In this document: positions 11,867-31,324 of the stretch, piece by piece
How positions within the stretch are numbered: position 1 is the first letter of the stretch
Layout of the letters: the number at the start of each line of letters is the position of its first letter
DNA from: Escherichia phage CMSTMSU
Strand: one strand, 5' to 3'
Sequence record: MH494197.1
DNA: 64,000 nucleotides
Notes under the pieces: model-generated
What the model was told of the DNA's origin: nothing
What the model saw: the letters and a program-made list of their open reading frames with translations, nothing else
Database searches by the model: none
Position numbers and translations under genes: made by a program

Positions 11867-11893
11867 ATATAGTATAATGAATAAGGAGGAATT

Positions 11894-13017: not shown

Positions 13018-13087
13018 ATACTATGCCAGTACTCAAGTACTGGCTTTTATTTTATTAAATATAGTATAATGAATAAAGGAGGGAAAT

Positions 13088-14273
13088 ATGTTACCTTTTG
13101 CAAGAATGGTTAAGTACGGGAATAAACAGCCTATTCCTGAACCAGTTGAGTTCACTGATGTTTTACAGCAACATTATACTAATGCTATGTATCTACATAA
13201 GCCCACGAATACACTATACGGTTATGGTGGTAATAACTTGAGCCAATTAGGTCTAGGGAATCAATCGACAGTTTCTACTTTTACAGTACTGGCAACGCAC
13301 TGTGCAGCCTTTTGGTTAGGCGTTCATGGCTCATTGATGATTGACTTGGATAATAGAATATATTTCACAGGGAATACAGTAGCATTCCCCGATTATGGAG
13401 ATGCAACTCCAGTTAATGGTTATTTTAGAACATGGACTGATGTTACTGCCGCATTTGACAAAATAAATGTACACGCTAATTTAATCAAGAGTGTACATAT
13501 AGGTGAAAGTACTAGAATATTACTACACGATGGAAGAGTAGTTGTTTGTGGTAAAATGCAAATGCCGAATGTGGAACAGGTAACCAAAATCCCATACCAG
13601 TACTAACAGTTGTTACTGGTATGGGTGAAGTTCTCAATTGGCGTGTTCATTACAGGGTACGCACTATCTCAAAACAAATAAAGAAGCATGGTTTTGTGGT
13701 AAGGATAACTTTGGTGAAAGTGGTGCTGGGACTAGCTCATACGTTTTACTAATAAGTTAATACGATCCAACGTCGATTATATAAGTGCTACTTATGATGT
13801 TACGGTGGTTCACTGCCGGTAGGGTGTACTGGAGTGGTAGAAACAATTCTGGACAAGCTGGGAATGGTACTACTTCAACCACAAACCAATTAACTACAGT
13901 TCAGAATTCACAGGTTATAGTGAATATTAGTGATGGTTTCCTGTGTCCTAGTAATATGGGTAACTCAACAATTGGTGCACCTATGGCTCAATACCCATCA
14001 TATGTCAGAGTGCAGGCATCAATACATATGGTCAAGAAGGGACGGAAATACAACAGTAATTACTTCGTGGGGGCGTTTTCTTTAAGTGCGATACAGGGTG
14101 GATATGACAATGTTCTTATGGCATCCAAAGACTGGTCCAGAACAATAATTATAACTAAAGATTATAAATTATATGCATGTGGGGGCTTTAACGGTTCAGG
14201 TGGTAACTTACCGGATGGTACTTCCGTAATTAAAACATTAACATTAATGCCAACGCAGTTATGGCAATCATAG
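13088..14273 (+). CDS. leader-tagged RCC1-like repeat protein F3 (frame breaks)
   Basis: Track ORFs 13088..13606 and 13785..14273; N-terminus MLPFARMVKYGN; repeats of type YGxGxNxxGQLG. Confidence 0.7.
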
Positions 14274-14282
14274 GAGAAAATC

Positions 14283-15404
14283 ATGTTACCTTTTGTTAGA
14301 ATGTTTGATTATGGAAATGAAGCACCTGATCCTAGTTCGGGATTTCGAATAATAAGTACAGGAGACGCATTACTATTAATTACTAAGAGTGGTGATTTGT
14401 GGGTGCGTGGTTATAACCGTTATGGCAAGTTAGGTATAGGTAATAACACCACTACCTATGTACTTGATTGGACGAAGGTTAGAAGTGATGTAAAGTTTGC
14501 GTGTGGTAGTGGATTGGTAACAGTTATCTTTACTAAGGGTAATCGCATATTGTACTGTGGTGACAAATGGTTTGAAACGGGTGGTGTTGGTAGTGCACAG
14601 ATTTTCACATGGACAGATGTTACGCACCAATTTGGGGCAGTAGATTTGAGTACAGTAAGGGATATGAAAATGTCTTATTACACGATTGGATTATTGACTA
14701 CTAATAATCAATTATACGCTAAGGGATATGATAATAACCTATCATTTGGTGGGGTTAGTAATAAGGCGACTGCTGTGTTTATTGCGAATAATGTACAAGA
14801 GTTGTATACGAGTTTAGTTAGTACAATCTACGTTGATACAAGTGGTATATTACATCGTTGTGGCATGAGTGATAACGGTTCGTTGGGTAATAATGTTAAT
14901 TTAACTTCGTATCTAAGTTATTCACAGACTGGTATGACGATTAAGGACATTGGAATGATGACTACGAACACTGGGTTATTATATACTGATTCTAGTGCAC
15001 GCACGAGATATTTTATTGCTGGACAGAACTTGAATAAACAGATGGGTAATGCGGCGGCTGCGAGTGCCATTACGAGTACTTACACAGAGCTTTCTGGTAG
15101 TGTTGATAAGTTTTCTTCTTTATGGGCGAATGATGGGATATTGATGACATTTGCTGTGGGTAAGAACACTAATCAGTTATTTTATGCTGGGATGAATACT
15201 TTTCATGCGAGTGGTGGTGTATCTTCATATGCGGATACATATGAGTTAGTCCCGATGGTGTTTAATGACATACAGGAAGTGTTATGTGCACAGCGTTTAT
15301 CGGTGGTACATGATTCTACGAAGTGGTATTACTGTGGTGATGCTAATTCAATGTATGGTTTACCGGACGTAAGTACTTTTACTGAGTTACCGTTGCCCTT
15401 TTAA
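14283..15404 (+). CDS. leader-tagged RCC1-like repeat protein F4 (intact, 373 aa)
   Basis: Uninterrupted track ORF; N-terminus MLPFVRMFDYGN; GGAG upstream; about seven repeats of (D/N)GxhYxxGxNxxGxLG; starts 9 nt after F3 stop with no terminator. Confidence 0.85.
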   Translation: MLPFVRMFDYGNEAPDPSSGFRIISTGDALLLITKSGDLWVRGYNRYGKLGIGNNTTTYVLDWTKVRSDVKFACGSGLVTVIFTKGNRILYCGDKWFETGGVGSAQIFTWTDVTHQFGAVDLSTVRDMKMSYYTIGLLTTNNQLYAKGYDNNLSFGGVSNKATAVFIANNVQELYTSLVSTIYVDTSGILHRCGMSDNGSLGNNVNLTSYLSYSQTGMTIKDIGMMTTNTGLLYTDSSARTRYFIAGQNLNKQMGNAAAASAITSTYTELSGSVDKFSSLWANDGILMTFAVGKNTNQLFYAGMNTFHASGGVSSYADTYELVPMVFNDIQEVLCAQRLSVVHDSTKWYYCGDANSMYGLPDVSTFTELPLPF

Positions 15405-15412
15405 TAATAGGT

Positions 15413-15440
15413 CAGTACTGAAATATGTACTGGTATTTTT
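15413..15440 (+). terminator. intrinsic terminator after F4
   Basis: CAGTAC-TGAAATAT-GTACTG hairpin followed by GTATTTTT. Confidence 0.55.
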
Positions 15441-15476
15441 GTAAATACTATATAATTTAATTACGGAGATTTTATT

Positions 15477-16653
15477 ATGTTACCTTTTGTTAGAATGTTT
15501 GATTATGGGAACGTCGTTGAGCGACCTGTGGGTACACGTTATACCTGTAGTGACTATAGTGCGACTTATAGTTTAATAAAGGATGGTGTGTTATATGTAT
15601 CTGGGATGAATAACTATTATCAGTTAGGTAATAACACTAACGTAACACGTTACAACGAGTGGTTAAAAGTTCCAGAGACTGATAGTGTTAAGTTTTGTAG
15701 TACTGGTTATAGTCAGACAATGTATATTACTAACAATGGGAGGATAATGATAGCTGGTGAAGATCCTACTTCCAGTGCGACGGCGGTAAGTGTTAAGGTA
15801 TGGACTGATATAACTTCTAGATTTAGTGCAGTTGATACAAAGAAGATTGTTTATATTTCAATAGAACGCTTTGGTGTAATGATGATCATGCAAGATGGTT
15901 CAGTATGGGCGTGTGGAGTTGATAATACTGGTTGGAGTGGGCAGGAAGTAAAACTGTTGGTTTCTTTACTTTCAGACAAATATACACCGGAAGTGCAGGA
16001 AGTGCAGTTGCTGGTACTGCTGGTACTGGTACTGCGAGAATTCTGTTAGCTAATGGAACAATCTTGTCCGCTGGTACTAATACATATCATCAATGTAATG
16101 CTAGTACTGATCCGGCTGTTCTAACATTCACTGAATCATTCCACGGGTTGATCCTTCATTGATATATCAAATCAAGATGTGTAATAACAACTGTATTATA
16201 TTTTGAGTGATAAGAGATATTACGGTACTGGCTGGGAAGTTTTGGTGCATTGGGTGATGGTGATATTACGGGTTCGAATAATAAATTCTATGCAGGTACA
16301 TTGTCAGTTGCTCCTAAAACATGCGTGCTTATATGTCGTATCTATGTAGTTCTTCTGGGGATTCTAGTATGTACATAGGCGATGATAATTTCATATACAC
16401 CTGCGGTTATCGTGGGAGGAACTTAATAAATGCCACTACAGATATTGGTACGTTCACGAAATGCATTCAAAGTGCACAAGGATACAAGAATGGACTTATA
16501 TATAGTGGGAATTATTGTGCTGTAGTTTTTGATCCAGATTTGGGTTCAGGAATGTCATATGCGGTTTCATCACCAAAATTGAATGCACCAGCACCACAGG
16601 CGAGTGTTCCAACATTGGGTATGAGTTCGTTACAAGCTATTATTTTACCATAA
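15477..16653 (+). CDS. leader-tagged RCC1-like repeat protein F5 (frame breaks)
   Basis: Track ORFs 15477..16049, 15932..16162, 16321..16653; N-terminus MLPFVRMFDYGN; variant promoter TATATAAT and GGAG. Confidence 0.65.
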
Positions 16654-16736
16654 CATTATACCAGTACTGAAATATGTGCTGGTATTTTTTTAAATACATT
16701 ATAATTATTATATGGAGATTTTAGTTATGTTACCTT

Positions 16737-17851
16737 TTGTAAGAATGTTTGATTATGGGAATACAGTGGCTGCTCCCACTGGTATAAAGGATTTCAAGCA
16801 AATGGAAGCCACTGTATGGCACTAACATATAGTGGTGAGATGTGGGCTTATGGTACAAGTACAAGTGGATCAATGGGAACCGGATTCACGGTGGGTGCTG
16901 CTGATAAGGGTTGGTACAAGTCTAACATTAGTAATGTTAAATCATTCAGTTCTAATATGCAGACTAGCACAGTGGCTTTGACAAATGATGATAGAGTGCT
17001 AGTTTGTGGCTCAACTAGATTTGACAAATTCAGTACTCCAGATATTGCATCATCTAACCTTGATTGGTTGGATGTTACTGATCATATTCCACAGGAAGTT
17101 ATTGATGCTGGGATGAAGCAAGTTATTAACCACGTATATTATGTTGCCATTTTACTGAAAACAATCTATTATATAGTGTGGCATTATCTTTGGGTAATAC
17201 TAGTACTATAATAGATAGAACATGGAGAAGAAATACATTTGGTGATATACAAGTTGAACGTGTTGTTTCGTTGACACAAACCCCAAGTGGTCCTTTGTGT
17301 ATAGTTCAAGATGCAGACGGATACCAGTATGGTATTGGATATAATGGTAATAAGATTATTGATAATACTTCCACTAATTCATATTCTGTATATACCAAAA
17401 TGGGTACACTTCCTTACAATGAATTTGCCATATCGAATAGCGGGAAATTCAGTTCAGCGGTATTATCAGATGGGAGAAGTGTTTATAGTGGTACATTTCC
17501 AAAGTCATTCAATAATAGTTTTGGTTCATTTTGAAAGTTGGTGCGGTATCAGATACTGTGTTTGGTTTAGATGCAAAAATATGCGTGGTCAATATGGTCA
17601 AAATCAATTACCAATTGCGTCGGCTGATAACAATGCAAGTAATGGCGTTGTGAACCTTCGTAATGTTCCAGCGGGAACACAAACGAAAGACATTCGATTT
17701 ATATGCGGAAATGATGTAAAGAACGTTTATATCATATACACAAATGAAGACGGCATTAGCTCATTTTATGGATTGGGACCAAACTTTGATCAAAATTCCT
17801 CAACATATGCACAATTCGTCAAAGTGGATTTGCGGGGCATTATCAAATTAA
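16737..17851 (+). CDS. leader-tagged RCC1-like repeat protein F6 (frame breaks, 3' end approximate)
   Basis: ATG at 16737 after terminator 16661..16690; N-terminus MLPFVRMFDYGN then early stop; body = track ORFs 16816..17211, 17178..17534 and 5' part of 17311..18324. Confidence 0.6.
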
Positions 17852-17861
17852 GGAGAGAAAT

Positions 17862-18960
17862 ATGTTACCTTTTGTTAGATTGTTTGATTATGGGAATATC
17901 ACACGGTCCTAAAAATATAATTAAAGTTGGTGCTTCTACACAGGGTCAATTCTTATTGACAGATTCACATGATTTATATTACATAGGTAGAAATCAAGGT
18001 GGTGAATCTGGAAATGGAAATACCAACACAGTATCCTCATGGATATTAGTAAGTACAGATGTTTCTAATTTTTTCGTGGGTGATCGTACACTTGTTATTA
18101 TTAAAAATGATAATACGATATGGTCATCAGGTCAAACGTACTGGTTCACATCTTCCACAACTACTTCTTACAGTACTGTATTAGTTGATAGAACCAGTTG
18201 GTTTACCAATGCCATACCAGTAAGTGAAATTGCTGATATAGTATGTTCGTATGGTTTAATATTTGTACTTAGCACTAGTTCAGTACTCTATGGTGCAGGG
18301 CTAATGGATATCGTGGTGCTTTAGGTATTGGTTCATCATCAATTTACACATTAACTCAATGTGCTACTAATGTGCGTAAAGTAATGACGAATGCAAATGA
18401 CAGTATGTATATTACATTAGATAATAAGTTATATAGTTCTGGGTGGAATGACCGTGGATTACATGGCACAGGAACAGAACACAAGTTAACATTTGGGGAC
18501 TGCGTAGTTCTGGTGTAATAGATGCAGCTATTGGTGGACATACACTCAATTACTATAATGGTACATCATATTTCACATGTGGTACAACTCCAAACTTTCT
18601 TAGTTCAGATTCAACTACATTCAAAGCAGTTCCTGTAAGTACTTTACCTAATAATTCACCTTTGTTTATGACAAATTCAGAGGCAACAAGCACGGCTACG
18701 CAAATTATATTAACTAGTGCATATCAGAAAGGTATTGGAAACCGTGGTTTGGGATTAAACAATTCTCAAACGGTGCTATCTATAGTGCTGCTAATTTACA
18801 ATTACCTGTAGAAGTTAGTGAGATTAGTGATGTTGCTTTTAGTGACGGATTAACATCATTATTAACCAAAGACGGAATGTATATAGTACTGGATCGTATT
18901 ACGCCATTCCGTGCAAGTGCAGATGTTGCAGTCTTTACTAAAATTGATTTACCAAAATAA
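17862..18960 (+). CDS. leader-tagged RCC1-like repeat protein F7 (frame breaks)
   Basis: AGGAGAGAAAT then ATG; N-terminus MLPFVRLFDYGN then stop; body = 3' part of track ORF 17311..18324 plus downstream frames ending ...FTKIDLPK. Confidence 0.6.
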
Positions 18961-18966
18961 CATAAT

Positions 18967-18993
18967 GCCAGTACTTGATACTGGCTTTTCTTT
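18967..18993 (+). terminator. intrinsic terminator after F7
   Basis: GCCAGTA-CTTGA-TACTGGC hairpin plus TTTTCTTTGG. Confidence 0.6.
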
Positions 18994-19000
18994 GGTTAAA

Positions 19001-19023
19001 TATAGTATAATGAATAAAGGAGG
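19001..19023 (+). promoter_or_regulatory. conserved array promoter/RBS module (-10 TATAAT at 19006-19011, AAGGAGG at 19017-19023)
   Basis: Block TTAAATATAGTATAATGAATAAAGGAGG nearly identical upstream of 12 of the 17 array genes; no convincing -35 hexamer. Confidence 0.5.
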
Positions 19024-19028
19024 GAATT

Positions 19029-20198
19029 ATGTTACCTTTTGCAAGAATGGTTAAGTACGGGAATATTGCACCTGTTCGCCCTGAAATAAAGAAATTGGAT
19101 GGTAGTCAATTACATGTCGGATTACTATATAGTACTGGTAATATGTATATGCGTGGTTCTGGTTCGAACTACAAGTTAGGTACAGGTGATGCTAGTGATG
19201 TATTAGATGGTTGGGTACATGTACCCTATGAAGTTGATGATTTTTGGGCGTGTGTGTCCGGTACATTAATAAAGACTAAAGACAATAAGTTATATTGTGC
19301 AGGACTATACATGGGTGGATATTTTGGTGCTAGTGGTTCATATGTTAACTGGACTGAAGTAACTTCATTATTTGTGGGTATTAACGTCTCACAAATAAAG
19401 AATATAGAATTTACATCAGCGAGTACTTCCGGTAGTACACTAATATTGATGTTAGATGGTAGTTTATATGGGTTCGGTATGAACAGTAGGTCGGAGTTAG
19501 GTGTTAATAACAAAGTCGTATCTCCTATTCTTATAGATACTGGGGTAAGTTCAATAGGAGCACATAAATTAGGTGGTTCATCGTTCCATTATATAAAAGA
19601 CGGTAAGTACTACAGATGTGGGACCGCGATTGGTAGTAATATAGGAAGTTCTTCTTTAACTACATTTACTGAATTGAGTATTGCTGATAATGTTATATCT
19701 ATGCAAATATTATTTGACAACGTACAGTTATTATGTTTTGGTAGTACTGGATATAGTATCTATATGGCTGGTTCTAATGATTATGGTGGAAGAGGTGTTG
19801 GTGGTAGTACTGTTTACACTACATTCAGGAAAATAGATCTTACTGGATTTGGTGTTGTTCCCAGTGAAATACTATTTGAAAATGCAGGGAATGGTTATGT
19901 TAATATATCAACTGATAGTACTGGCATATATACATGTGGTGGTGGTGCTGGTGTTAATGGTTTAGGTAGACCGAGTAATGTTATATCAAGTTCACAGTTG
20001 GGTTTGATTGAGTTCAGTACAGGATTATACCCAGCAAATATAAGTCGTGTATTTTCACAGAGTTCATCTTCTGTTATATATTGTATAGTTAATAATGAAT
20101 TGTACTGGGCTGGGAGTAATTCATATTTTACTGATCAAACTACAAATACTGGTACACAATTTTCATTTATTAAGATGAAGGATATGCCTTCTGCTTAG
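19029..20198 (+). CDS. leader-tagged RCC1-like repeat protein F8 (intact, 389 aa)
   Basis: Uninterrupted track ORF; N-terminus MLPFARMVKYGN; Gly/Ser/Thr/Asn-rich repeats. Confidence 0.85.
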   Translation: MLPFARMVKYGNIAPVRPEIKKLDGSQLHVGLLYSTGNMYMRGSGSNYKLGTGDASDVLDGWVHVPYEVDDFWACVSGTLIKTKDNKLYCAGLYMGGYFGASGSYVNWTEVTSLFVGINVSQIKNIEFTSASTSGSTLILMLDGSLYGFGMNSRSELGVNNKVVSPILIDTGVSSIGAHKLGGSSFHYIKDGKYYRCGTAIGSNIGSSSLTTFTELSIADNVISMQILFDNVQLLCFGSTGYSIYMAGSNDYGGRGVGGSTVYTTFRKIDLTGFGVVPSEILFENAGNGYVNISTDSTGIYTCGGGAGVNGLGRPSNVISSSQLGLIEFSTGLYPANISRVFSQSSSSVIYCIVNNELYWAGSNSYFTDQTTNTGTQFSFIKMKDMPSA

Positions 20199-20205
20199 AT
20201 TTTAT

Positions 20206-20235
20206 GCCAGTACTCTGTACTGGCATTTCTTTATT
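20206..20235 (+). terminator. intrinsic terminator after F8
   Basis: GCCAGTAC-TCT-GTACTGGC hairpin plus ATTTCTTTATT. Confidence 0.6.
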
Positions 20236-20265
20236 AAATATAGTATAATGAATAAAGGAGGAAAT

Positions 20266-21470
20266 ATGTTACCTTTTGTAAGAATGTTTGATTATGGGAA
20301 TGAAGCACCTGTGCCAGTTGGTATAAAGATGGTAAAAGTTTTACAGAATAATGTGTTTATTTTATTAGAAGACGGAAGATTATATGGCAGAGGGCATAAT
20401 TTTTACTATCAATTAGGTACTGGTAGTAGTTCTCCTACTATAGTTGAAGAGTGGGTTTTATGTTTAACTGATGTAAAGGAATTTTGGACTACTGGTGATA
20501 CACAAGGAATATTAGTACGTAAAAATGATGGCACATGGTGGAGTACTGGTACTCAAATCTATCGTGGTGTTAATACTACTTATCGTGTATGGACAGAAAT
20601 ACTTGGTATTTTTAATGATGTGAATGACACATATAGTAAAATAGTTATAGGAAGCGGCGTTACATTATTATTAACAATAGATAATAAATTATATAAGATG
20701 GGTGACAATAACAACGGTGAAGTTTTACTGGGGCTGTTGGTCAAAGAGTATCAGTACTGACATTGACACCAGAAGTTAATGTTAAAGATATTGGTGTAAC
20801 CGCGAATAATGCTTCATTTGTATTATACAATGATGGAACATTAAAGTACAGTGGGAATAAATCTAGTATTGGTTCGACTGGTACGACTAGTACAACTCCC
20901 ACATTGACTACTGTTACTACTGGAGTATTACAGATAAATTCGGAAAATGCATATAGTGCTAATTACGTATTAAAGAGTGATGGGCTATATGTATTCGGTT
21001 CACAAATAGATGGACAGTTGGGTGATGGCACTGATGGCACTATTAACAGTCTTAGAACAATCACAAAGATACCAGCTTCTAGTATTCCTAGTACTGCTAT
21101 TGATTACATAGGTGGTTCTAATTTTGAAGCACACGTTAGAGCAGGTGGTATATGGTATTTCGCTGGGCGTGGAAACGCTTCTGGAGATGGAATAACGAAC
21201 TCTAATGTTATTAAAACATGGCGTGCATGTACTAATATAACTGAACCAGTTCCATATGATAAAATGACACATGGTTATATGATAACATTCATGTTAAAAA
21301 CGGTGAATTATATGGTTCAGGGAATGGTGGTAGAACTGCTGGTATGGGTACAATTCCGTATGAAGAAGAAAATGCCGGAAATACAGGATTATTTAAAAAA
21401 TAGTTACACCGAGTTAAAATTAAAAGCCAGTACTCTGTACTGGCATTTCTTTGTATTAAATATAGTATAA
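20266..21470 (+). CDS. leader-tagged RCC1-like repeat protein F9 (frame break)
   Basis: Track ORF 20248..20760 trimmed to MLPFVRMFDYGN Met, plus track ORF 20763..21470. Confidence 0.65.
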
Positions 21471-21488
21471 TGAATAAAGGAGGGAATT

Positions 21489-22595
21489 ATGTTACCTTTT
21501 GCAAGAATGGTTAAGTACGGGAATATTGCACCAGTTCCGGTAGTTCCTACAATAAAAGATTTTAAGATTGGATTTTCACATGAAGTGTTATTGGACAGTG
21601 CAGGTGATGTATGGGGTATTGGATACAATACAGATGGGCAGTTGGCTTTTTGGATGCAAACACCAATTCATTAGGTGCGTGGTCTAAGATATATACTGAT
21701 GTTCGATTAATTGGAGTTACTGCTAGATATACAGTGGTAGTTACTAATAATAATAGAATACTATACGCAGGAAATAACTTAATTTCTAGTACTACCACTC
21801 TTGGGTGGACCGATATAACTACCAGTATGGGTCCGGTTGCGGTGGATAGCATCGATGCATTATATTGTACAGAGGGTATGATGCATATTAAAACTTCAGA
21901 TGGTTCTTTATATGCATATGGTCGTAACATGAACGCAAACAGTGGTGTTACTGGTGGTGTTATTAGTGTTGCAACTAAGGTTAATTTGCCTTCTGCTGTA
22001 AATGACATGCGATATACGTTTAGTTATGGTTCAGTACTATGTAGATTGGATACGACTTCTATATACGCATGGGGACGAAACATAAATGGTGAATTAGGTC
22101 AGGGTAATGCAACAGCCATTGTTACTCCAAAACTATTGTCTGGTTCTTCTATTGCAATGGGTACTTCGTATAATGCTACTGCAATTGTTTCTGGTTCTGC
22201 ATTGTTGCTTACATGTGGTGGACAAAACAGTGGGCAGTTAGGTAATGGTATTACAACTGATGGTAATGTATACACCTTTGGTGTCAGGACATACCAGCGA
22301 TCTTAATACAATAAGAAGTCCAGTGGATTGCAGTACAACGTACACCTCTGCATTTATGAGTCCAGATGGTATATATTACACTGGTGCTAACCGAAGTATG
22401 TTTGGTGGTATTAGTGGTGGTGCTACCGTTGGAATATATACTAAATGTAGTGATTTACCAATAACATATTCTAATATAATTCAGTGGAGTAGTGGTACTA
22501 TTGGTGGTGCTATATGTAGTAGTACAGAGTTATACCAATGTGGTATAGGTAGATACATTGCTGGTGATGGTGCGAGCACAACCGTATGGATTTAG
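21489..22595 (+). CDS. leader-tagged RCC1-like repeat protein F10 (frame breaks)
   Basis: Track ORFs 21489..21674, 21611..22306, 22245..22595; N-terminus MLPFARMVKYGN; break near a T-run. Confidence 0.65.
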
Positions 22596-22695
22596 GAAGA
22601 CACCATTACCTTGGGATACTTATTGACATTACGCCAGTACTTGATACTGGCTTTTCTTTTGATTAAATATAGTATAATGAATAAAGGAGGGAATT

Positions 22696-23884
22696 ATGTT
22701 ACCTTTTGTTAGAATGTTTGATTATGGGAATATCACACCTGAACCTCTTCAAATTAAGAAAATAATACCAACTGATACTGAGGTTGTTGTACTTTATACC
22801 GACGGTCAACTATACGCACGAGGCAGTAATAGTTATGGGAAGTTTGGTAGAGGAAATAATAATGCAGTAAGGTCGTGGACATTAATTAGAGAAAATGTCA
22901 AAGATTGCTGGATGACACAAGGAACTTTGTTAGTTCAAGATAAGGACTTAAATTATTTTTATTGTGGATATGGTAGTCATATTGGTTTAGAAACTAGTAC
23001 TACATCATTTTTAAGTTATAACCAATATATTGAAAATTTGTACACACAAAGTTCAGGTACTTCAATTAAACAGATGTATGCAGGTACTACTTGGTTTACT
23101 TTCTTAATGGATAATAATACAATATGGAGTACTGGTTGGAGTGGGGCTAGACAATTCGCTGATGGTACTGGTAGTACTCAACAAATAACAGATGGATCAT
23201 TTGTAAAAGCTGTCACGCCTAATGTTGATATTGCACGAATACAGTCAACAAATAGCTGTGTAATGTTTTATGATACACAAAATAATTTATATATTGGTGG
23301 TAGTACATCAGGTATAAGTACTACTGATACATGGACTCCATACAATCAATATACTTTATATCAGCCAAGTACAACATATACAAAAACATTACAATATGTT
23401 GTATGTACAATTGGTGCAGTCAGTGCTTTAGTGGAGAATCCAAGTACAGGAGCACGTCAGTTCCTAGTGGGTGGGAACGCCAATAATGGGGCATGGGGTA
23501 ATAACACTACGTCTAGTACAGCACGAGCAGTATTAGGAAATAATAGTACAACCTTACCACCGTACTTTGTATTCAATTCATACTGGATACCCAGCACAAT
23601 CTAGTATACTAGTTACGAGTTCTGGTGTATATGCAACAGGTTTAAATGCGAGTAGTTATGCTGGTTCATTGGGTGTTGGTTCTAATGTTACCATTGGTAA
23701 ATTTACTGCATGTCCATTGCCGTCAGAAATAACATATTCTATGTATGATAAAATAAAAATATATCGAGGGTCGTTACGTACTTTCCTAACTGCTGATATG
23801 AAAAATATATATTCAACCGGAACTTATGATGATGGTGGTCCTAGTACAAATAGATATGTACTGGATACACCTAGACAATTGTAA
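22696..23884 (+). CDS. leader-tagged RCC1-like repeat protein F11 (frame break)
   Basis: Track ORFs 22696..23604 and 23567..23884; N-terminus MLPFVRMFDYGN. Confidence 0.7.
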
Positions 23885-23948
23885 AAAAGCCAGTATCAAG
23901 TACTGGCTTTTCTTTGTTAAATATAGTATAATGAATAAAGGAGGAATT

Positions 23949-24683
23949 ATGTTACCTTTTGCTAGAATGGTTAAGTACGGGAATAAAATTGAATATAAGC
24001 CACATGGTGAACAATTAATCACGACAATAGGAACAACACAATTTACAGTTCCTGCTGGCGTTACCGAAATATCAGTATGTGTTATTTCGCCGGTGGTCAA
24101 CGTGGTGCTGGCGGCGGCTTATCGTGGCGTAATAATATTCCGGTTTCTGGTGGTGAGTACTTAAGTGTTTCTCTTACATCCCAACACTACTACAGCAGTT
24201 GAAAACGGTTTATATCGTGGAACTGAAAAACTATGTGTTAGCTTCACTGGTGCATATACGGTTGGTGGACTAGGTGGAAAAGCTGCTAACGCTATTAATG
24301 ATGGTGGTGGTAATGGTGGCAACACTGGTTTAAGTGGTGGTGCAGTCATTGGTGGTGGTGCTGGTGGCTACACTGGTAAAGGTGGTAACGGAAATGCAAT
24401 CACTGGTGAAAATGGTGCTGGGGGCGGCGGTGGTGGTGGTGCATTCTATAATACCTCGTTCATTGGTACGGGTGGTGGTACTGGTATCATTGTTCAAGGT
24501 GCTAATGGTATTGGTGGTAGCTACGATGGTTCATATAATGGTGGTGCTGGTAGTGGTGGTGCTGGTAATAGGTATGGTGGTGGTGGTAGTATATGGGATA
24601 ATTCTTCTTATACGGCGGCTGGTGGTGGTGCTGTGCGAATAATATGGGGACGTGGGAGATATTATCCTAATAATTCAGTCTAA
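23949..24683 (+). CDS. leader-tagged glycine-rich domain protein F12 (frame break)
   Basis: Track ORF 23826..24164 trimmed to MLPFARMVKYGN Met, plus track ORF 24165..24683 (GGGNGGNTGLSGG..., GAGGGGGGGAF); alternative frame across the break gives FAGGQRGAGGGLSWRN. Confidence 0.65.
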
Positions 24684-24752
24684 AATATAGGCCAGTACTT
24701 GATACTGGCTTTTCTTTGAATTAAATATAGTATAATGAATAAAGGAGGAAAT

Positions 24753-25907
24753 ATGTTACCTTTTGTTAGAATGTTTGATTACGGGAATATTGCACCTGAA
24801 GCTCCAAAGATAAAGAAAGTACTGTGCGGTCTTGATAATTTGTACGTCCTCTATGACGATGGCTCACTTTATGGTTGTGGGGTTAATTCGTATTTTCAGT
24901 TAAACGTTACAAATACAGCAACAAGAAATACTTGGATATTAATTTCAGAAGGTGTTACTGATGCATGGGCTGGGGCGTACAATATTCTTTATATCAAGGG
25001 TGAAGAATTCATAATGCATGGAGTTACCACACAATTAGGCACAGGAAATACTATGATTCCGTTGGGTGGTTTGAATGTTACTTCTTCATTTCCACATATA
25101 TCTAATATTAAAATGATATCAATCGGTGCAGATACAATGCACTACGTTGATGCTAGTGGTTCGATTGTTTATGGTAGAGGCATGAATGGTAACTATTCAC
25201 TCGGTGGTGGGTATTCCACGGCTCAGAGTACTTTTGTTTCAGTTATTAATACCGGAGCTAATACAGTCCTTGATATATTGGGTACACAGAATAACACATT
25301 AATATTAACATCAAATGGTGAACTTCTCGGTTGTGGGAGTAGTGAGTATGGCTCACTTGGCGTAAGTCAAGGACAGTATACTACACTAGTAAGCAGGTTA
25401 ACCAGTGTTAAACTGTTTGGTGGTAACAGTACTGGTACTCTTGCTTATTCAGCCAGCAATATATACAACGCAGGTTGGCAGTATGTTGGTCAACTTGGTA
25501 ACGGTATTACAACGAACACACTAGTATATCCATTTGCATTTAACTCCACTACTATTGATAGTAACATACATAAAATATCAAAATCAAGTACATCTTCACG
25601 TGTTAATATGTACGCAACAACCGAAGGAAAGATATATAGTACTGGTGAATTTGGTAGAAATGGTTCTGGTGGTAGTTTGAGTAGATTCACCAATACACTA
25701 ACTTTAGATAATTACAACCCAGAAAAATCAGCATTATACACATGTGCACATTTTAGTATAGTATTTGATGGTAATAATCAAATTTATGCTTGTGGTTCTT
25801 TTTGTATGTGCGTTCTATTACCACGAACTCATGGTCTGCAATTACAATGCCGAAATGATACTATAAAACTATGCCAGTACTTGATGCTGGCATTTCTTTT
25901 GTATTAA
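24753..25907 (+). CDS. leader-tagged RCC1-like repeat protein F13 (intact, ~384 aa)
   Basis: Track ORF 24735..25907 trimmed to MLPFVRMFDYGN Met; colinear paralogue of F1. Confidence 0.8.
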   Translation: MLPFVRMFDYGNIAPEAPKIKKVLCGLDNLYVLYDDGSLYGCGVNSYFQLNVTNTATRNTWILISEGVTDAWAGAYNILYIKGEEFIMHGVTTQLGTGNTMIPLGGLNVTSSFPHISNIKMISIGADTMHYVDASGSIVYGRGMNGNYSLGGGYSTAQSTFVSVINTGANTVLDILGTQNNTLILTSNGELLGCGSSEYGSLGVSQGQYTTLVSRLTSVKLFGGNSTGTLAYSASNIYNAGWQYVGQLGNGITTNTLVYPFAFNSTTIDSNIHKISKSSTSSRVNMYATTEGKIYSTGEFGRNGSGGSLSRFTNTLTLDNYNPEKSALYTCAHFSIVFDGNNQIYACGSFCMCVLLPRTHGLQLQCRNDTIKLCQYLMLAFLLY

Positions 25908-25936
25908 ATATAGTATAATGAATAAAGGAGGAAAAT

Positions 25937-27070
25937 ATGTTACCTTTTGCAAGAATGGTTAAGTACGGAAATAAAAGACCATCTAATAATATCAAAAGAT
26001 TTCATGTACAACCAATAACAGTGTTTTGGTGCTCACCGAAAGTGGAGATTTGTATGGTTTTGGATTCAATTCAGGTGGTGAACTTGGCACTGGTGCAAAA
26101 CTAGTGTTACTTCAGTTATTCAAATTGACACTGGAGTTGATGATGTATGGGGTGGTAGTCTATGTGCAATGTACAGAAAAGGCGATGAATTCTTTGGCAG
26201 CGGGACGGTTCTTATTATGGTTCAAGTGCTGTTAACTCAACCACATTTGTAAATGTAACACACATATTCCAAGATATAGATATTCTTAATATTAAGAAAA
26301 TTAAAATGACAACAGGTTTGTTTATATTAATGCAAAACGGCAACTTATATGGATGTGGGGTAAACACCAATTGTCAATTTGGTACTGGTGAGGCAGTGAA
26401 TTTTCGTTATCCTATAGCTACATTAACACAAACGGATGTTGTTGATTTTGATATTTTAGGAAACTCTAGTATAATATTAAAGACCGATGGGTACATGTAC
26501 AGTGCGGGTGATAATGGTCGTGGACAACTTGGTAGTTCTACTGCAACCACACTTCTGGTATATACACAAATTAGTAAATTTCCAAACGTAACCAATTTGG
26601 ATCTGTTCGGACACTCACAAGTTACTTCATTATTCAAAGATAGTGATGGTAAAACGTGGTTGAGTGGTAATAGTTATGGTATTGATTACCCAGTAGTAGC
26701 TACAACATTATTCAGTAAAGAAGCACCAGTACCTGAAGGTACATTTCGTTTTATCAACACAAGGGCAGGGTCAAATACACCAATAATATGTACACCCACT
26801 GGGTATTATGTTGCTGGTACTAACCCTTATGGTGCATATGGTATAGGTACGAATGTAACTCTGACAACATTCACAAGAATGGATTCTATGGATAGATACA
26901 TATCTGATTATAATAATGTTCCTGTTTTCGATGGATGTTTCTATGGGACATATTTTGCAGTTGGGGAACGTCTGTTTGGTGCAGGTAATGGTAATACTGG
27001 TAATGTTCCGGATATACTGGATCACAGCGTAACTATGTGGAAATTAATTATAAAAATAATTAAACCTTAA
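25937..27070 (+). CDS. leader-tagged RCC1-like repeat protein F14 (frame breaks)
   Basis: ATG at 25937 behind AAGGAGG; N-terminus MLPFARMVKYGN; body = track ORFs 26026..26235 and 26306..27070. Confidence 0.65.
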
Positions 27071-27138
27071 TACTATGCCAGTACTTGATACTGGCTTTTC
27101 TTTGGTTAAATATAGTATAAAGAATAAAGGAGGGAATT

Positions 27139-28308
27139 ATGTTACCTTTTGCTAGAATGGTTAAGTACGGGAATACTATACCCAAACCCGCTGGTGTGAA
27201 GAAAATTAGTACTTCCATTAATCACGTTGGGATGTTATTCGATAATGGAAATTTATATCTACGTGGGGTGGTGGTGAGTATAAGTTAGGAAATGACAGTA
27301 CTGGATTCGTACAGAATGGTTGGGTTAAGTGTCCATATAGCGTTGCTGATGTTTGGTGCTTCACTTACGCGACAATTATACTTACTACAAGTGGTGAATT
27401 ATACTTAGCTGGACAATTGGGTTATGTTGGTGTAGTTGCAGCGAGCGTACGGATGGACTAATATTACATCTAATTTATCCTCAATACCTGCACTTAGTAC
27501 TATACAAAACATAGCTTATACTGAGACTACAATTTACAATGGTGCTATATTAATTTTGTTAAGCAACGGGGACTTATATGGTATAGGTCGTAATGGTGGT
27601 GGTGTATTAGGCGTTTCTGGAATCCAATCAACTGCACTTAAGATTGACACAGGTGTTACTTTAATTGCTGGCACAGACCGTTCAGCGGCGTTACATTATG
27701 TGAAAAATGGTCAATACTACAGATGTGGGAATAATTCTCGCTACAACCTAGGAACAAGCTCTTCTGTTTTATCTACATTTACGGTAAGTACAGATATCAC
27801 AGGAACCGTACTGGGATTGCATGTACTACAAATGCGACTTCAGTACTGACATCATATAATGGTACTATTAGAGTGTATAGTGCTGGGACGAATACCGATT
27901 ATACGTTAGGTATTGGTTATGGAGATACCAGTATAATAATGAGTCCATTTAGTGCTACACCTCCAATTTATGGTATTGTACCAGATGCGGCATCACTGAA
28001 TAATTCTTGTATTAATTCTAATATGATTGCGATGACACAGGGTGGTAAATTGTATACATGTGGTAATGGTGTTGCTCTTGGTAGAGAAATCACTGCATCG
28101 ACACCTAGAACGGCGTACTATCCAGTACTATTTGAGGATTCAAATACTGCACTTGATGTTAATGCTTTTGCAGTGCAGGGGGTTCCGGTGTGTTATACGC
28201 ATTAGTGGGGGCAAATGAGGTTTACTGGTGTGGTAGTGGTTCTATGTTCCGGAACAGAGTGCAGGTACACAACAAGTTAAAATGAAGAAAATGATTTTAC
28301 CAGAATAG
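27139..28308 (+). CDS. leader-tagged RCC1-like repeat protein F15 (frame breaks)
   Basis: ATG at 27139; N-terminus MLPFARMVKYGN; body = track ORFs 27436..27849 and 27873..28205; upstream -10 is TATAAA. Confidence 0.6.
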
Positions 28309-28317
28309 GAGGAAAAT

Positions 28318-29449
28318 ATGTTACCTTTTGCAAGAATGGTTAAGTACGGGAATATAAAAGTAAAGAGTACTATCCAAAAAGTTATCCTTGGTGGTGGTGG
28401 TCAATGTGTGGTAACATTACTCAGTGATGGTAGAGTGTATGGACGTGGATACAATACAACATATGGGTTGGGTACTGGTACAACAACATTCGTAAGTGAT
28501 TGGGTATTAATGGGCGATAATATTGTTGATATCCATTCAAATGGTGTTACTGGCACATTCCTTATTACCAAAGAAAATAGAATTTTGTATTCTGGTTTTG
28601 CGACACCAATCAATGGCACAACATCACATTATACACGTTTCACTGATTTAACATCAACTGTATTTGCTGCGGTGGATGTTAGTAATATTAAAACAATTAC
28701 GGGAAATGGTAATGTTACAATGGTTCTTTTGAATGATGGTTCACTTTATGGGAGTGCAAATACAGGGTTATAGGTAATGGTAGTAACGTTGCATTATCAA
28801 CACAAACATATGTGACTAATGATGTGCGTGATGTGAAAACATATCCATCAATGAACACTATAACAAAAATAATAATCAAATATTGGCTAGTGGTATTTTA
28901 TACCAAGGCGTGAACGGTACAAATTCATCAATAAACACGTCTTCATATACATTACTGTACACATTACCGAGTTCTGATTGTTTTCAATTTGCATTTGATA
29001 CATATACATTTGGATATGTTGACCCTAGTACTAACACTTCTTATATAAGAGGTATACCAATAAATGGTTCATTAGGTAATGGCGTTACTAATAATACAGC
29101 AGTTACAACATGGGTTACTAAAGTTTGGAATACACCAATTGATAGTTCTATACCTAATAAATCATATACAACTAACCATGTCTCCTTGTTCAATGATGGA
29201 AACTTATGGACAACTGGTGCATCTAGTGTCGGCTATTCCAATGGTACAAATAGCACAACAGCTAATACATGGACCAGTTCATCTAATTTACCATTCAACA
29301 CTAATAACATAACAGACTATGCTTTTGGTGGTAGTATTACTGTGGTGGTAATCGACTATAGGACTATGTACATACTAGCTAACAACGCCATTGCTGGTAC
29401 TGCTACGACAACTTATAAATTTGAGCCATATAATTCTCCACCAGTTTAA
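28318..29449 (+). CDS. leader-tagged RCC1-like repeat protein F16 (frame break)
   Basis: Track ORFs 28318..28773 and 28883..29449; N-terminus MLPFARMVKYGN; starts 10 nt after F15 stop behind GGAGG. Confidence 0.65.
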
Positions 29450-29479
29450 TATAATGCCAGTACTATGTACTGGCTTTCT

Positions 29480-30128
29480 TTACATATTATATAATGTGAA
29501 TGCTGTCACTTTACCAGTTGTTGTTAGTTCATTATAAAGATACTCCAATATTCTCGCACACTCTAAGTATATCTCGATATCATCATGAATAAGTGAGTAC
29601 TGAAATAGCTGTTCTTCAGATAATTTGTATTGACTTCCTTTTAATGAATTGAGAATATCTTTCACATCATCAAGTACTGGGTAAAGTACGAAATCTTCAT
29701 CATATTTTGAAGCAATAAATTCAAATCCACCACCATCAGTACTAGATATACCAATCAGTACTTTATCAACCAAGTTAATGTTTATATAACGGTTGTGATT
29801 TGGGTGAATTGAAATCTCAAACATACGAGTACTGTTACAATCAACATCAATATACAAATATACATCGTTGAATTTATAAGTTAAGCAACCGTACTCAAGA
29901 AAATCAGAGCAAATAATTGATGAGTTTTTCTCGTCTCTGCGTAATGCATCTTGATATTCTTTTCACGCATAAGTAATTCGAACTTTGCACTAAACTTGCC
30001 ACCAGTAAGATAATTAGTATTAGGACGTTTGTAACTTGCAACTGGTCGGTGGGATGATGTAAAGTATTTTTTGTGAATCGTTTCTGTTTAGTGAAATATT
30101 CTTGATAGAACTTACTTCTTTTATTCAT
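29480..30128 (-). CDS. hypothetical protein encoded antisense within the array (frame break)
   Basis: Track ORFs 29904..30128 and 29480..29857 joined by a shifted frame (GGKFSAKFELLMREKNIKMHY...); sits between F16 and F17. Confidence 0.4.
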
Positions 30129-30205
30129 GAGTACCTCAATTAAATCGCTGTAAAATTGTACATTATAAAATGATTAAATAAAGTATAACACAAGGAGATT
30201 TTATC

Positions 30206-31324
30206 ATGTTACCTTTCGTATTGTTATTTGATTATGGGAACGAAAAACAAGAAAGTTCTTATGATGTTAGTGTATATGGAAACAATAACTACATTTTAAA
30301 TAAACAAACTGGAAACCTTTTTGCATCCGGTGCTGCGCATTCATGGGTGATAACACAGTTAAGTATTATATTACCCAAATAGAATCAAATGTTCATAGCT
30401 GTGAGATAGGTTTCCTATCATCATGGATAATTAAGAAGGACAAAACTGTTTTCATTTTAGGAAACAAAAGCAGTATTGGATTAACTGATTCGACAACATC
30501 ATGGTTCGAAATTACAAACTTATTTTCTGCTGTTCCTGAAATATGGGACAACCTATTTGAATGTAAAGTTCAATTGGGATATAACTGCATACGTGTTATG
30601 ACACCACTAGGATCAATATATGCGATTGGTACAAACACTTATGGTGCATTGGGTACTGGTACTACATCCTCATCCACTTCGTTCGTTAAAAGTGGTGCTG
30701 TGGATGCTGTACGCATGGAATCAACAGAACGTTCAGTGTTCTATCAAAACAGTTCTGGACAATGGTTTGGATGTGGTGATAACACATATGGTATACTAGG
30801 TCTAGGAACTACCGCTAGTCGTGTAAACTCATACACCGCACCAGTATGGACTAATGCAGAAGCTGTTAGCTTCTCTAACCGTGGATCATATACAGCCTCA
30901 ATGGTACTCTATACTCATGTGGTGACAAAGTTAATGGTCAGCTAGGGATGGATATACACAAAGCATAGACGCTGCCGAGCACACCATACACCATAGGAAC
31001 CGCATTCCAAATTGGTAAGGCAATAACATCAGCTACACAAGCATCAGCCAACGTATTCATTGGTAAAGATAATAAGTTCTATGGTACTGGTAGTATTGCT
31101 GCTGGTATAAATGGTAGTACTAGTGCTGCATTAAGTAAAGTTACTGCGTTATCAGCATCACTACCACCTGACATTACATACAATGATATTATATCATTTA
31201 ATACAGGGACCGTAACTTTTATTCAAGCAAAGGACAACTATATTATGTTGGTAGAAGAACTTACATAGATAATAGTTCAGACGTTACCACACAGTTCAGT
31301 GTAATTGGTGGATTAGATAATTAA
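30206..31324 (+). CDS. leader-tagged RCC1-like repeat protein F17, divergent leader (frame breaks)
   Basis: ATG behind AAGGAG; N-terminus MLPFVLLFDYGN; body = track ORF 30343..30945 plus downstream frames ending ...VIGGLDN. Confidence 0.55.

What the first reader, a model, noticed from the sequence alone, without database searches (positions are those of the whole stretch)
23949..24683. Same leader grafted onto a glycine-rich domain (F12)
F12 carries the MLPFARMVKYGN leader and cassette but its body is a glycine-rich domain (GGGNGGNTGLSGG, GAGGGGGGGAF) rather than RCC1-like repeats. It is also shorter, about 245 aa. This argues that the leader and cassette are a portable module.
Basis: partly seen in the sequence, partly recalled or inferred. 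Interest (0 to 1): 0.55.

Follow-up and report, generated by a model that had tools for sequence, protein, structure and literature searches.

The report
Leader-tagged glycine-rich phage virion protein
In a jumbo E. coli phage, this gene joins a 12-residue N-terminal tag shared with its neighbours to a glycine-rich 'brush' domain like those at phage tail-fibre tips; the tag is probably a ticket into the virus particle, and the copy in this window is broken by two probable sequencing errors.

Summary
The window comes from an Asteriusvirus (121Q/BF17-like jumbo coliphage). F12 carries the MLPFARMVKYGN leader, the upstream hairpin/promoter-like/RBS cassette and a glycine-rich body. As written, though, it is not an open 245-aa frame. 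A 1-nt and a 2-nt deletion break it, with a stop at 24162-24164. The whole window has about 5.8 small indels per kb against BF17, so these are almost certainly assembly errors. Seventeen related phages carry an intact 245-aa ortholog.

The leader is portable. I found 65 ORFs starting M[LI]PF in nine Rak2-like jumbo-phage genomes or contigs. Most continue xR[MIL]xxYGN, the rest PIIS. Their bodies include RCC1, Kelch, LamG and glycine-rich domains. The peptide stays conserved through synonymous changes and without the cassette. Published virion proteomes detected many of these proteins, including the F12 homolog CBB_144.

Best reading: F12 is an accessory virion adhesin whose flexible leader acts as a docking or incorporation tag. 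That mechanism is inferred, not shown.

The parts
10720..30241 (+). Array of 17 genes that all begin with the MLPF leader, measured from the first leader start to the last leader end. F12 is the 12th and the only one with a glycine-rich body.
23885..23916 (+). Terminator-like hairpin (GCCAGTATCAAGTACTGGC) plus T-run after the stop of the upstream RCC1 gene F11. This is the first part of the repeated cassette.
   Evidence: Its loop is the reverse complement of the loop in the other units.
23917..23932 (+). Conserved promoter-like box TTAAATATAGTATAAT, with TATAAT at 23927-23932 and no sigma-70 -35 match.
   Evidence: Conserved in 11 of the 16 units, with a divergent variant in F5 and F6. The sigma-70 scan did not call it. 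It only resembles the ATAAATA late motif reported for Rak2-like phages. Function untested.
23937..23944 (+). Ribosome-binding site AAAGGAGG, 4 nt before the ATG.
   Evidence: Read from the sequence.
23949..23984 (+). Leader MLPFARMVKYGN, the 'VK' flavour shared with F1, F3, F8, F10, F14, F15 and F16.
   Evidence: Low-confidence and unstructured in the AlphaFold models of both F12 and an RCC1 paralog.
23949..24683 (+). F12 coding region. It is 245 aa once two indels are repaired. In the window as written it is split into 23949-24164 and a second frame running to the stop at 24681-24683.
24092..24093 (+). Site of the 1-nt deletion (GGG to GG) relative to BF17 and 121Q. It shifts the frame.
24162..24164 (+). 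Premature TAA created by the first frameshift.
24176..24178 (+). Site of the 2-nt deletion (ACAC to AC). It restores the original frame.
24006..24245 (+). N-terminal beta-sandwich (TNF-like) part of the body, residues about 20-100, containing the family motifs FTVPAGVTEI and GGGLSWRNNIPV.
24264..24629 (+). Glycine-rich region, residues about 107-228, 43% Gly, with NDGGGNGG and GGGAGGY motifs.
24689..24718 (+). Terminator-like hairpin plus T-run after F12. It is the start of the next cassette, for F13.

Best explanation
F12 is the window's copy of a conserved 245-aa Asteriusvirus gene (121Q gp243, BF17 QXN76566). It encodes a small accessory virion protein with two parts.

Part 1 is a flexible N-terminal leader of 12-19 residues (MLPFARMVKYGN plus a short linker). 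The same leader heads every gene of the array, whatever the body. It most likely serves as the peptide that docks or incorporates these proteins into the virion.

Part 2 is a TNF-like beta-sandwich carrying a glycine-rich 'brush'. This is the fold that forms the receptor-binding distal part of the Pam3 tail fibre and the Bxb1 tail wing brush. F12 would therefore add one more binding specificity to a repertoire otherwise made of RCC1 propellers here, and of Kelch propellers and LamG lectin-like domains in relatives.

Each unit is transcribed separately from a hairpin/promoter-like/RBS cassette. The conserved cassette and leader also act as homology for shuffling whole units between genomes.

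Shown: gene identity, domain family, fold similarity, distribution of the leader, and virion presence of homologs. Inferred: that the leader is the incorporation signal, where on the particle the protein sits, and that it binds a host surface ligand. The two frameshifts in the window are assembly errors.
For: Identity. The window is 97% identical to BF17 over this stretch. The ortholog is an intact 738-nt CDS in BF17 and 121Q and is intact and single-copy in 17 Escherichia phage records.

Errors. There are 5.8 indels per kb across the window, mostly 1-nt homopolymer deletions. Repaired F12 differs from BF17 at 3 of 245 residues, with 7 synonymous and 3 non-synonymous differences.

Leader.
- In 25 RCC1 or Kelch paralogs that are 17-30% identical, the only invariant columns are M1, P3, F4 and one Gly.
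- Codons vary synonymously among paralogs and phages.
- The leader is present without the cassette in BF, CBB and window units F4, F7 and F16.
- In 65 leader ORFs from nine genomes or contigs, positions outside the search pattern are conserved: R6 in 44, Y10 in 51, G11 in 50 and N12 in 53.
- The strict DNA pattern hits only 348-378-kb jumbo contigs plus one 24-kb fragment in IMG/VR.
- The leader is unstructured in the models of both body types.

Virion association. CBB_144, a full-length F12 homolog (hhalign probability 99.7%, E 5e-26), was detected in CBB virions with 5 peptides and 34% coverage. Seven of nine leader proteins in the CBB cluster were detected by MS. GAP32 gp001 was MS-detected according to the CBB paper, and gp002 is annotated 'virion structural protein'. 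Six phAPEC6 array proteins were detected by MS.

Shuffling. The order of units around F12 differs among BF17, UE-S1 and 121Q. Homology with other phages breaks at the cassette or leader.
Against: - No experiment links the leader to incorporation. The argument rests on correlation: every MS-detected member has the leader.
- F12 itself has never been shown in a virion. In phAPEC6 the ortholog was left out of the annotation, so the MS search could not find it.
- Peptide counts for array proteins are low, at 1-4 in phAPEC6.
- F12 lacks the helical trimerising shaft of the Pam3 fibre, and no chaperone gene is adjacent.
- CBB has whiskers but no RCC1 gene, so a simple equation of the array with the 'hairy' fibres fails.
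- F12 itself scores below every Pfam threshold.
- The profile found no sequence-level match to any solved structure, so the link to Pam3 and Bxb1 rests on fold alone.
- dN/dS against 121Q is 0.5-0.8, but on only about 20 substitutions.
Confidence: 0.6

Rival explanations
1. The leader is a capsid-targeting sequence like the one on phage T4 internal proteins. Leader-bearing proteins would be packed inside the head through the scaffold, perhaps trimmed by the prohead protease, and injected with the DNA. There the propeller, lectin and brush bodies would bind host proteins, for example defence factors.
For: A short N-terminal tag shared by unrelated bodies in a variable tandem locus is how the T4 internal-protein locus is organised (own knowledge: Mullaney and Black 1996; Repoila et al. 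1994). Rak2-like phages are distant T4 relatives. phAPEC6 has an inner body, and its authors proposed the RCC1 proteins as inner-body candidates. MS shows virion association but not location. The low peptide counts would fit minor internal components.
Against: The leader has no Glu and no (L/I)xE cleavage motif of the T4 type, as the sequence shows directly. Every solved relative of the F12 body is an external tail-tip or fibre component. In other phages the Gly_rich_2 domain is the distal end of tail-fibre-like proteins. LamG, Kelch and RCC1 bodies are typical surface-binding folds. No processing data exist either way.
Confidence: 0.2
2. The leader has no function as a peptide. Its conservation is a by-product of DNA-level processes: gene conversion spreading from the conserved intergenic cassette, or a requirement of the mRNA around the start codon for translation or regulation.
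For: Within Asteriusvirus the first 12 nt (ATGTTACCTTTT) are identical in all copies, third codon positions included, and are contiguous with the conserved cassette. Whole units recombine at this junction.
Against: The peptide is conserved through synonymous changes in BF, L009 and CBB: TTA/CTA, CCA/CCC/CCT, TTT/TTC, GCA/GCG, AGA/AGG. It persists where there is no cassette and only 9-15-nt gaps between genes. It is conserved across genera whose bodies share only about 20-35% identity. Y10, G11 and N12 were not part of the ORF search pattern, yet they are present in 50-53 of 65 ORFs.
Confidence: 0.1
3. F12 is a genuine pseudogene in this particular phage. It would be an accessory array member in the process of being lost.
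For: The frame is broken and contains a stop. F12 is absent from some Asteriusvirus genomes such as Ecwhy_1, so it is dispensable.
Against: The same indel density and type affect the whole window, including non-array genes and 13 of the 16 array genes. No viable phage could carry that load. Apart from the indels, F12 has only 10 substitutions against BF17, 7 of them synonymous.
Confidence: 0.05
4. The glycine-rich body is an out-of-frame reading of a degraded RCC1-like gene.
For: None found. The only support is that the window copy does contain frameshifts.
Against: The repaired frame is the conserved one in 17 phages. It has 186 homologs with conserved motifs and folds with pLDDT 93. No frame of the region resembles RCC1 beyond the leader. 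The unit is 804 nt long, against about 1.2 kb for RCC1 units.
Confidence: 0.01

Closest known systems
Orthologs 121Q gp243 (YP_009101830) and BF17 QXN76566, annotated 'hypothetical protein'
   Same: Same gene: 94-99% amino-acid identity after repair, same position inside the RCC1 array, same leader and cassette.
   Different: Those copies are intact. The window copy has two indels. None of the 17 records carries a functional annotation.
Pectobacterium phage CBB structural protein CBB_144
   Same: Full-length homolog (hhalign probability 99.7%; BLASTP 36% identity over residues 1-120). It starts MLPFSPLIVYGNKI and is about the same size, 254 aa. It was detected in virions by MS.
   Different: It stands alone between anaerobic ribonucleotide reductase genes rather than in an array. 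Its C-terminal family motif VRIIWG has diverged.
Pfam PF21722 Gly_rich_2 ('glycine-rich domain-containing protein')
   Same: F12's homologs match the whole profile. The motifs VPxGVT, GGGLSWRNNIPV, NDGGGNGG, GGGAGGY and VRIIWG are shared. BFVD structural neighbours carry this name.
   Different: F12 itself gets no Pfam hit at E<=1. Most stand-alone family members begin MxE[LM][LM] rather than MLPF.
Cyanophage Pam3 tail fibre gp24 (PDB 7ypx)
   Different: 17% identity and no sequence-level match. Pam3 gp24 has an N-terminal alpha-helical trimerising and baseplate-docking domain and a dedicated chaperone gp25. F12 has a 19-residue unstructured leader, and no chaperone gene is adjacent.
Mycobacteriophage Bxb1 tail wing brush gp33 (PDB 9d93)
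   Different: Different phage type and host. It has no MLPF leader, and its mode of attachment was not examined here.
Phage T4 internal proteins with their capsid-targeting sequence, and the variable IP locus (own knowledge)
   Same: A roughly 10-residue N-terminal tag shared by unrelated bodies, in a tandem, highly variable locus with repeated regulatory sequences that promote recombination.
   Different: The T4 tag ends in a Glu cleavage site and the proteins are small, basic and internal. The MLPF leader has no such site, and its bodies are folds seen on virion exteriors. Membership is not supported.

Membership tests
Pfam PF21722 Gly_rich_2 | Match to the family HMM at or above the gathering score (24.3 bits) | tested here: not met
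   F12 (BF17 version) gets no Pfam family at E<=1. The closest homologs P0010 and P0017 also get none.
Pfam PF21722 Gly_rich_2 | Significant homology to proteins that do pass the HMM threshold over the full domain | tested here: met
   F12 to P0038: E 1.2e-15, 88% coverage. P0038 to PF21722: 32.7 bits, profile positions 5-225 of 226. Many hits carry precomputed PF21722.
Pfam PF21722 Gly_rich_2 | Conserved family motifs and domain extent | tested here: met
   In the 61-sequence alignment, P35, G69, G121, GGAGGY (137-142), W234, G235 and P241 are invariant.
Pam3 gp24-type tail fibre | TNF-like beta-sandwich plus glycine-rich lattice | tested here: met
Pam3 gp24-type tail fibre | N-terminal alpha-helical trimerisation and baseplate-docking domain | tested here: not met
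   The model has no helix before residue 111. Residues 1-19 are coil with pLDDT 50-70.
Pam3 gp24-type tail fibre | Adjacent dedicated fibre-assembly chaperone gene | tested here: not met
   Both neighbours are RCC1-like array genes. A chaperone encoded elsewhere was not searched for.
RCC1-like array proteins of Asteriusvirus | RCC1 / RCC1-like domain repeats | tested here: not met
   No RCC1 hit for F12, while 24 of 25 array paralogs hit PF25390. Similarity to paralogs ends by residue 26.
RCC1-like array proteins of Asteriusvirus | MLPF leader and the repeated upstream cassette | tested here: met
MLPF-leader virion proteins of Rak2-like jumbo phages (a grouping defined here) | N-terminus M[LI]PF, usually followed by xR[MIL]xxYGN, then a single beta-rich globular body | tested here: met
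   F12 reads MLPFARMVKYGN. Consensus from 65 ORFs. Body model.
MLPF-leader virion proteins of Rak2-like jumbo phages (a grouping defined here) | Presence of the protein in purified virions | not testable with these tools
   Shown by published MS only for the homolog CBB_144 and other members. The phAPEC6 ortholog was not in the search database.
T4-type capsid-targeting-sequence internal proteins | Short shared N-terminal tag on unrelated bodies | tested here: met
T4-type capsid-targeting-sequence internal proteins | Prohead-protease cleavage motif (L/I-x-E) at the end of the tag | tested here: not met
   Residues 1-14 of F12 contain no Glu. In the 65 ORFs, position 9 is E in only 10. The cleavage specificity of the Rak2-like protease is unknown.
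T4-type capsid-targeting-sequence internal proteins | Location inside the capsid and injection with the DNA | not testable with these tools
   The MS data do not give location.

The most novel reading that the evidence does not exclude
The MLPF leader is a general 'plug-in' tag for Rak2-like jumbo phages. Any protein carrying these roughly 12 residues would be docked onto a common site on the particle, possibly the unassigned fibres on capsid hexamers and the rings of tail 'hairs'. On this reading the phage displays a shuffled, strain-specific repertoire of small adhesins (RCC1, Kelch, LamG, glycine-rich brush) from one tandem locus. One hint: five of the six MS-detected structural proteins that whiskered CBB has and GAP32 lacks carry the leader.
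Probability: 0.35. Interest if true: 0.7.

Novelty: new variant of a known kind. Interest (0 to 1): 0.5.

Why it matters
The gene and its domain are already in databases, as a hypothetical protein and as PF21722. By itself F12 is a new member of a known kind.

What appears to be undescribed is the leader. My text searches found no paper that mentions it. It is a conserved peptide of about 12 residues that heads at least five unrelated body types. Many of the proteins carrying it have been detected in virions, across several genera of jumbo phages.

If the leader is the incorporation signal, three things follow.
- It explains why these phages keep 10-17 tandem 'RCC1' genes, which are currently annotated as DNA-condensation proteins on weak grounds.
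- It gives candidates for the unexplained hairy appendages of phAPEC6 and CBB.
- It offers a short tag for displaying foreign proteins on jumbo phages.

There is also a practical warning. This window is an error-rich assembly, so ORF-based reading of it is unreliable. The phAPEC6 annotation misses this gene as well.

Tried and rejected
- Pfam, NCBIfam and PHROGs on F12 gave no Pfam or NCBIfam hit and only PHROG 4474 of unknown function. Family assignment had to go through homologs.
- The profile of the family against PDB sequences returned only a spurious galectin hit at E 0.014. The links to solved structures rest on fold alone.
- The search for related loci with the 61-sequence alignment failed for lack of a conserved stretch. 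A 15-sequence alignment worked but gave only 12 loci.
- I considered equating the array proteins with the 'hairy' tail whiskers. I rejected this as a firm claim, because CBB has whiskers but no RCC1 gene, the hairs are about 119 nm long and these are 25-45-kDa globular proteins. It is kept only as the novel case, in weakened form.
- I considered a sigma-70 promoter in the cassette. The scan does not call one, because there is no -35 element. The resemblance to the ATAAATA late motif is imperfect.
- I looked for N-terminal peptides in the CBB supplements to test leader retention. No peptide lists are held there.
- PVP-SE1 gp19, a distant family member, stands alone beside replication genes and says nothing about the leader.
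- dN/dS among the three orthologs rests on too few substitutions to interpret.
- No tRNA genes were found in the window.

Full report
WHAT THE WINDOW IS. The stretch around F12 is 97% identical to Escherichia phage BF17 and 92-95% identical to fEgEco12, 121Q, phAPEC6 and other members of the genus Asteriusvirus. These are jumbo myoviruses of about 350-380 kb, the 'Rak2-like' phages. The leader DNA motif ATGTTACCTTTTGYTAGAATG occurs 16 times on the + strand between 10720 and 28338, at about 1.2-kb spacing, against 0 expected in shuffles. A looser scan adds a 17th copy at 30206. F12 is the 12th unit.

CHECKING THE OBSERVATION. However, 23949-24683 is not an open reading frame in the window as written.
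- The frame that starts at 23949 ends at a TAA at 24162-24164 after 71 codons. The glycine-rich part is read in another frame.
- Alignment with the intact 738-nt CDS of BF17 (QXN76566) and 121Q (gp243) shows two deletions in the window: 1 nt in a G-run at about 24092-24093 and 2 nt (ACAC to AC) at about 24176-24178.
- This is not special to F12. Over 30.4 kb aligned to BF17 the window has 178 small indels (5.8 per kb). Of these, 120 are single-base deletions, most in homopolymers, and they lie inside and outside the array. Thirteen of the 16 array genes have early stops.
- No viable phage could carry that load, so the window is an error-rich assembly and the F12 frameshifts are almost certainly artefacts.
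- After repair, F12 is 245 aa, differs from BF17 at three residues, and shows 7 synonymous against 3 non-synonymous substitutions.

WHAT THE BODY IS. It is not a frameshifted RCC1 gene.
- Similarity to the other array members stops after residues 13-26. F12 has no RCC1 signal, while 24 of 25 array paralogs hit the RCC1-like domain PF25390.
- A search of the large protein collection found 186 homologs. Most are stand-alone proteins of about 240-300 aa, and many carry Pfam PF21722 (Gly_rich_2).
- F12 itself falls below every Pfam threshold. Its homolog P0038 (E 1.2e-15 to F12) matches PF21722 across the whole profile and above the gathering score.
- A 61-sequence alignment shows the family motifs FTVPxGVT, GGGLSWRNNIPVTPGE, NDGGGNGG, GGGAGGY and VRIIWG.
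- F12 is 29% glycine overall and 43% in residues 107-228.

Foldseek agrees on the same targets. BFVD neighbours are named 'glycine-rich domain-containing protein', tail fibre or baseplate component. In Pam3 the TNF-like sandwich and the glycine-rich lattice form the distal part of the fibre that recognises the receptor, while an N-terminal helical domain docks to the baseplate (PMC9608196). Bxb1 gp33 is a small, dispensable protein held on the tail through gp30 (PMC12646305). In other phage contigs the same domain ends long proteins in tail-fibre gene clusters, often next to LamG-like or collagen-like proteins. No sequence-level match to any solved structure was found, so these links are by fold.

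THE LEADER IS A PROTEIN-LEVEL, PORTABLE MODULE. Four lines of evidence support this.
1. Conservation far above the body. In 25 RCC1 or Kelch paralogs from BF17, 121Q, Serratia phage BF and a metagenomic contig, pairwise identity is 17-30%. The only invariant columns are M1, P3, F4 and one glycine.
2. Synonymous variation. The peptide is kept while codons change: TTA/CTA, CCA/CCC/CCT, TTT/TTC, GCA/GCG, AGA/AGG.
3. Independence from the cassette. Window units F4, F7 and F16 have the leader but no hairpin or promoter-like box. In Serratia phage BF and in CBB the leader genes are 9-15 nt apart with no cassette.
4. Many bodies.
- BF17 has one Kelch-propeller member among its RCC1 genes.
- Serratia phage BF has an array of RCC1 genes interleaved with two glycine-rich genes, plus a LamG-like gene, all starting MLPF.
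- CBB has three Kelch propellers, at least two LamG_3 proteins and several unassigned ones.
- GAP32 gp001 (RCC1) and gp002 (LamG-like) both carry it.
- Metagenomic jumbo contigs add an RCC1+Kelch fusion of 667 aa.
In all I collected 65 leader ORFs from nine genomes or contigs. Positions that were not part of the search pattern are strongly conserved: R6 in 44, Y10 in 51, G11 in 50 and N12 in 53. A minority have MLPFPIIS instead. A degenerate DNA pattern for the leader hits only contigs of 348-378 kb, plus one 24-kb fragment, in the IMG/VR collection. In the AlphaFold models of both F12 and an RCC1 paralog the first 19 or so residues are unstructured and of low confidence. They lie outside the globular body.

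LEADER PROTEINS ARE VIRION COMPONENTS.
- The CBB paper (PMC5259590) lists CBB_536, 537, 548, 549, 551, 552 and 553 among MS-detected structural proteins. These are seven of the nine leader genes in that cluster.
- CBB_144 begins MLPFSPLIVYGNKI and is a full-length homolog of F12 (hhalign probability 99.7%, E 5e-26; BLASTP 36% identity over the first 120 residues). It was detected with 5 unique peptides and 34% coverage, even though its gene lies among ribonucleotide reductase genes.
- GAP32 gp001 was MS-detected according to the CBB paper, and gp002 is annotated as a virion structural protein.
- In phAPEC6, six array proteins were found in virions (PMC7247149).
- The phAPEC6 ortholog of F12 is intact (7325-8059) but was not annotated. 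A wrong-frame 'gp004' was annotated instead. Its absence from that proteome is therefore uninformative.

THE CASSETTE. Upstream of F12 lie a hairpin with a T-run (23885-23916), a box TTAAATATAGTATAAT (23917-23932) and AAAGGAGG (23937-23944). A second hairpin follows the gene at 24689-24718. F12 therefore looks like its own transcription unit. The box has no sigma-70 -35 partner and only loosely resembles the ATAAATA late motif reported for these phages. Its activity is untested.

The cassette and leader also mark recombination junctions. Homology between the window and other phages begins or ends at them, and the order of units differs:
- F10-F11-F12-F13 in the window and BF17;
- F10-F12-F11 in UE-S1;
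- F15type-F11-F12-other-F10type in 121Q.
F12 is intact and single-copy in 17 Escherichia phage records and missing from others such as Ecwhy_1. It is an accessory unit.

HOW IT MOST LIKELY WORKS. Shown: F12 is a leader plus a TNF-like, glycine-rich body; homologs are in virions; the leader is shared by unrelated bodies and conserved as a peptide. Inferred: the flexible leader is what docks or incorporates these proteins into the particle, and the body binds a host-surface ligand. On this reading the array is a shuffled repertoire of small adhesins.

I rate this at about 0.6. The main rival (about 0.2) is a T4-style capsid-targeting sequence that delivers internal, injected proteins. The architecture of the locus fits that rival. 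The leader, however, lacks a T4-type cleavage motif, and all structural relatives of the body are external. A purely DNA-level explanation of leader conservation (about 0.1) is contradicted by the synonymous changes and by the cassette-free arrays. A true pseudogene (about 0.05) and a frameshifted RCC1 gene (about 0.01) are unlikely.

An older layer may exist. Most stand-alone Gly_rich_2 proteins begin MxE[LM][LM]. In a PhiTE-like 150-kb phage a LamG-like neighbour begins the same way.

NOVELTY. The gene and the domain are known, though unannotated. In the literature I could search, nobody has described the leader as a shared tag. Short N-terminal targeting or anchoring modules are a known kind of device, so I class this as a new variant of a known kind, of moderate interest.

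Noticed in passing
whole window (aligned blocks 5-43911): The window has about 5.8 small indels per kb relative to BF17. Of 178 indels, 120 are 1-nt deletions, mostly in homopolymers, and they affect array and non-array genes alike. Thirteen of the 16 array genes have early stops. ORF-based reading of this window is unreliable.
   Followed up: yes
window 30206-30241 (+): A 17th leader-bearing gene (MLPFVLLFDYGNEKQESS...) lies beyond the 16 found with the strict motif. In BF17 it is separated from the main run by a gene on the opposite strand.
   Followed up: partly
window 14283, 17862, 28318 (units F4, F7, F16); 15477, 16727 (F5, F6): F4, F7 and F16 keep the leader but lack the hairpin/promoter-like cassette, so they may be co-transcribed with the preceding gene. 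F5 and F6 have a divergent version of the cassette.
   Followed up: partly
window 10720-28353, leaders of all units: The leader comes in two flavours: MLPFVRMFDYGN (F2, F4, F5, F6, F9, F11, F13, with F7 a RLFDYGN variant) and MLPF[A/V]RMVKYGN (F1, F3, F8, F10, F12, F14, F15, F16). Whether they mark two docking classes or two gene-conversion groups is unknown.
   Followed up: no
window 23889-23907 versus 24691-24709: The hairpin upstream of F12 has the same stem as the other units, but its loop is reverse-complemented (TCAAG instead of CTTGA), as if the palindromic element were flipped.
   Followed up: no
L010 (phAPEC6 MK817115) 7325-8059: The phAPEC6 ortholog of F12 is intact but unannotated. 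The record instead annotates a wrong-frame 100-aa 'gp004' (7716-8018) made of Val/Leu runs. The published virion proteome therefore could not have detected this protein.
   Followed up: yes
L003 (BF17) 31609-32514, minus strand: The BF17 array includes a 301-aa Kelch-propeller protein with the same leader (QXN76575). The window has no counterpart beyond the leader.
   Followed up: partly
L027/L028 (CBB NC_041878): Six MS-detected structural proteins are present in whiskered CBB but absent from GAP32. Five of them (CBB_144, 536, 537, 551, 552) carry the MLPF leader. The CBB authors expected such CBB-specific proteins to account for the whiskers.
   Followed up: partly
L004 6134-8744; L013 7879-9372 (PhiTE-like phages of about 150 kb): A second leader type, MxE[LM][LM], heads two tandem glycine-rich proteins and a LamG-like neighbour. 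They lie just upstream of spanin-like genes and the terminase. Most stand-alone Gly_rich_2 proteins share this N-terminus.
   Followed up: partly
protein P0002 (206 aa, from a 26.7-kb Logan contig): This is a close relative of F12 (73% identity) that lacks the leader (it begins MNKGGNKIEYKPHG...) and part of the glycine-rich region. It could be a natural deletion variant or an assembly artefact.
   Followed up: no
L006/L007 (metagenome contigs ERZ724085/ERZ724084): Three consecutive genes share an MLPFPI-type start: a LamG_3 protein (MFPLPIINQ), a 69-aa protein (MLPFPIISQ) and a glycine-rich protein (MLPFPIMIH). The 69-aa protein and the fragment upstream of the LamG gene share a C-terminal motif (R..G.IW.(T/S)NF...(T/N)IY).
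   Followed up: no
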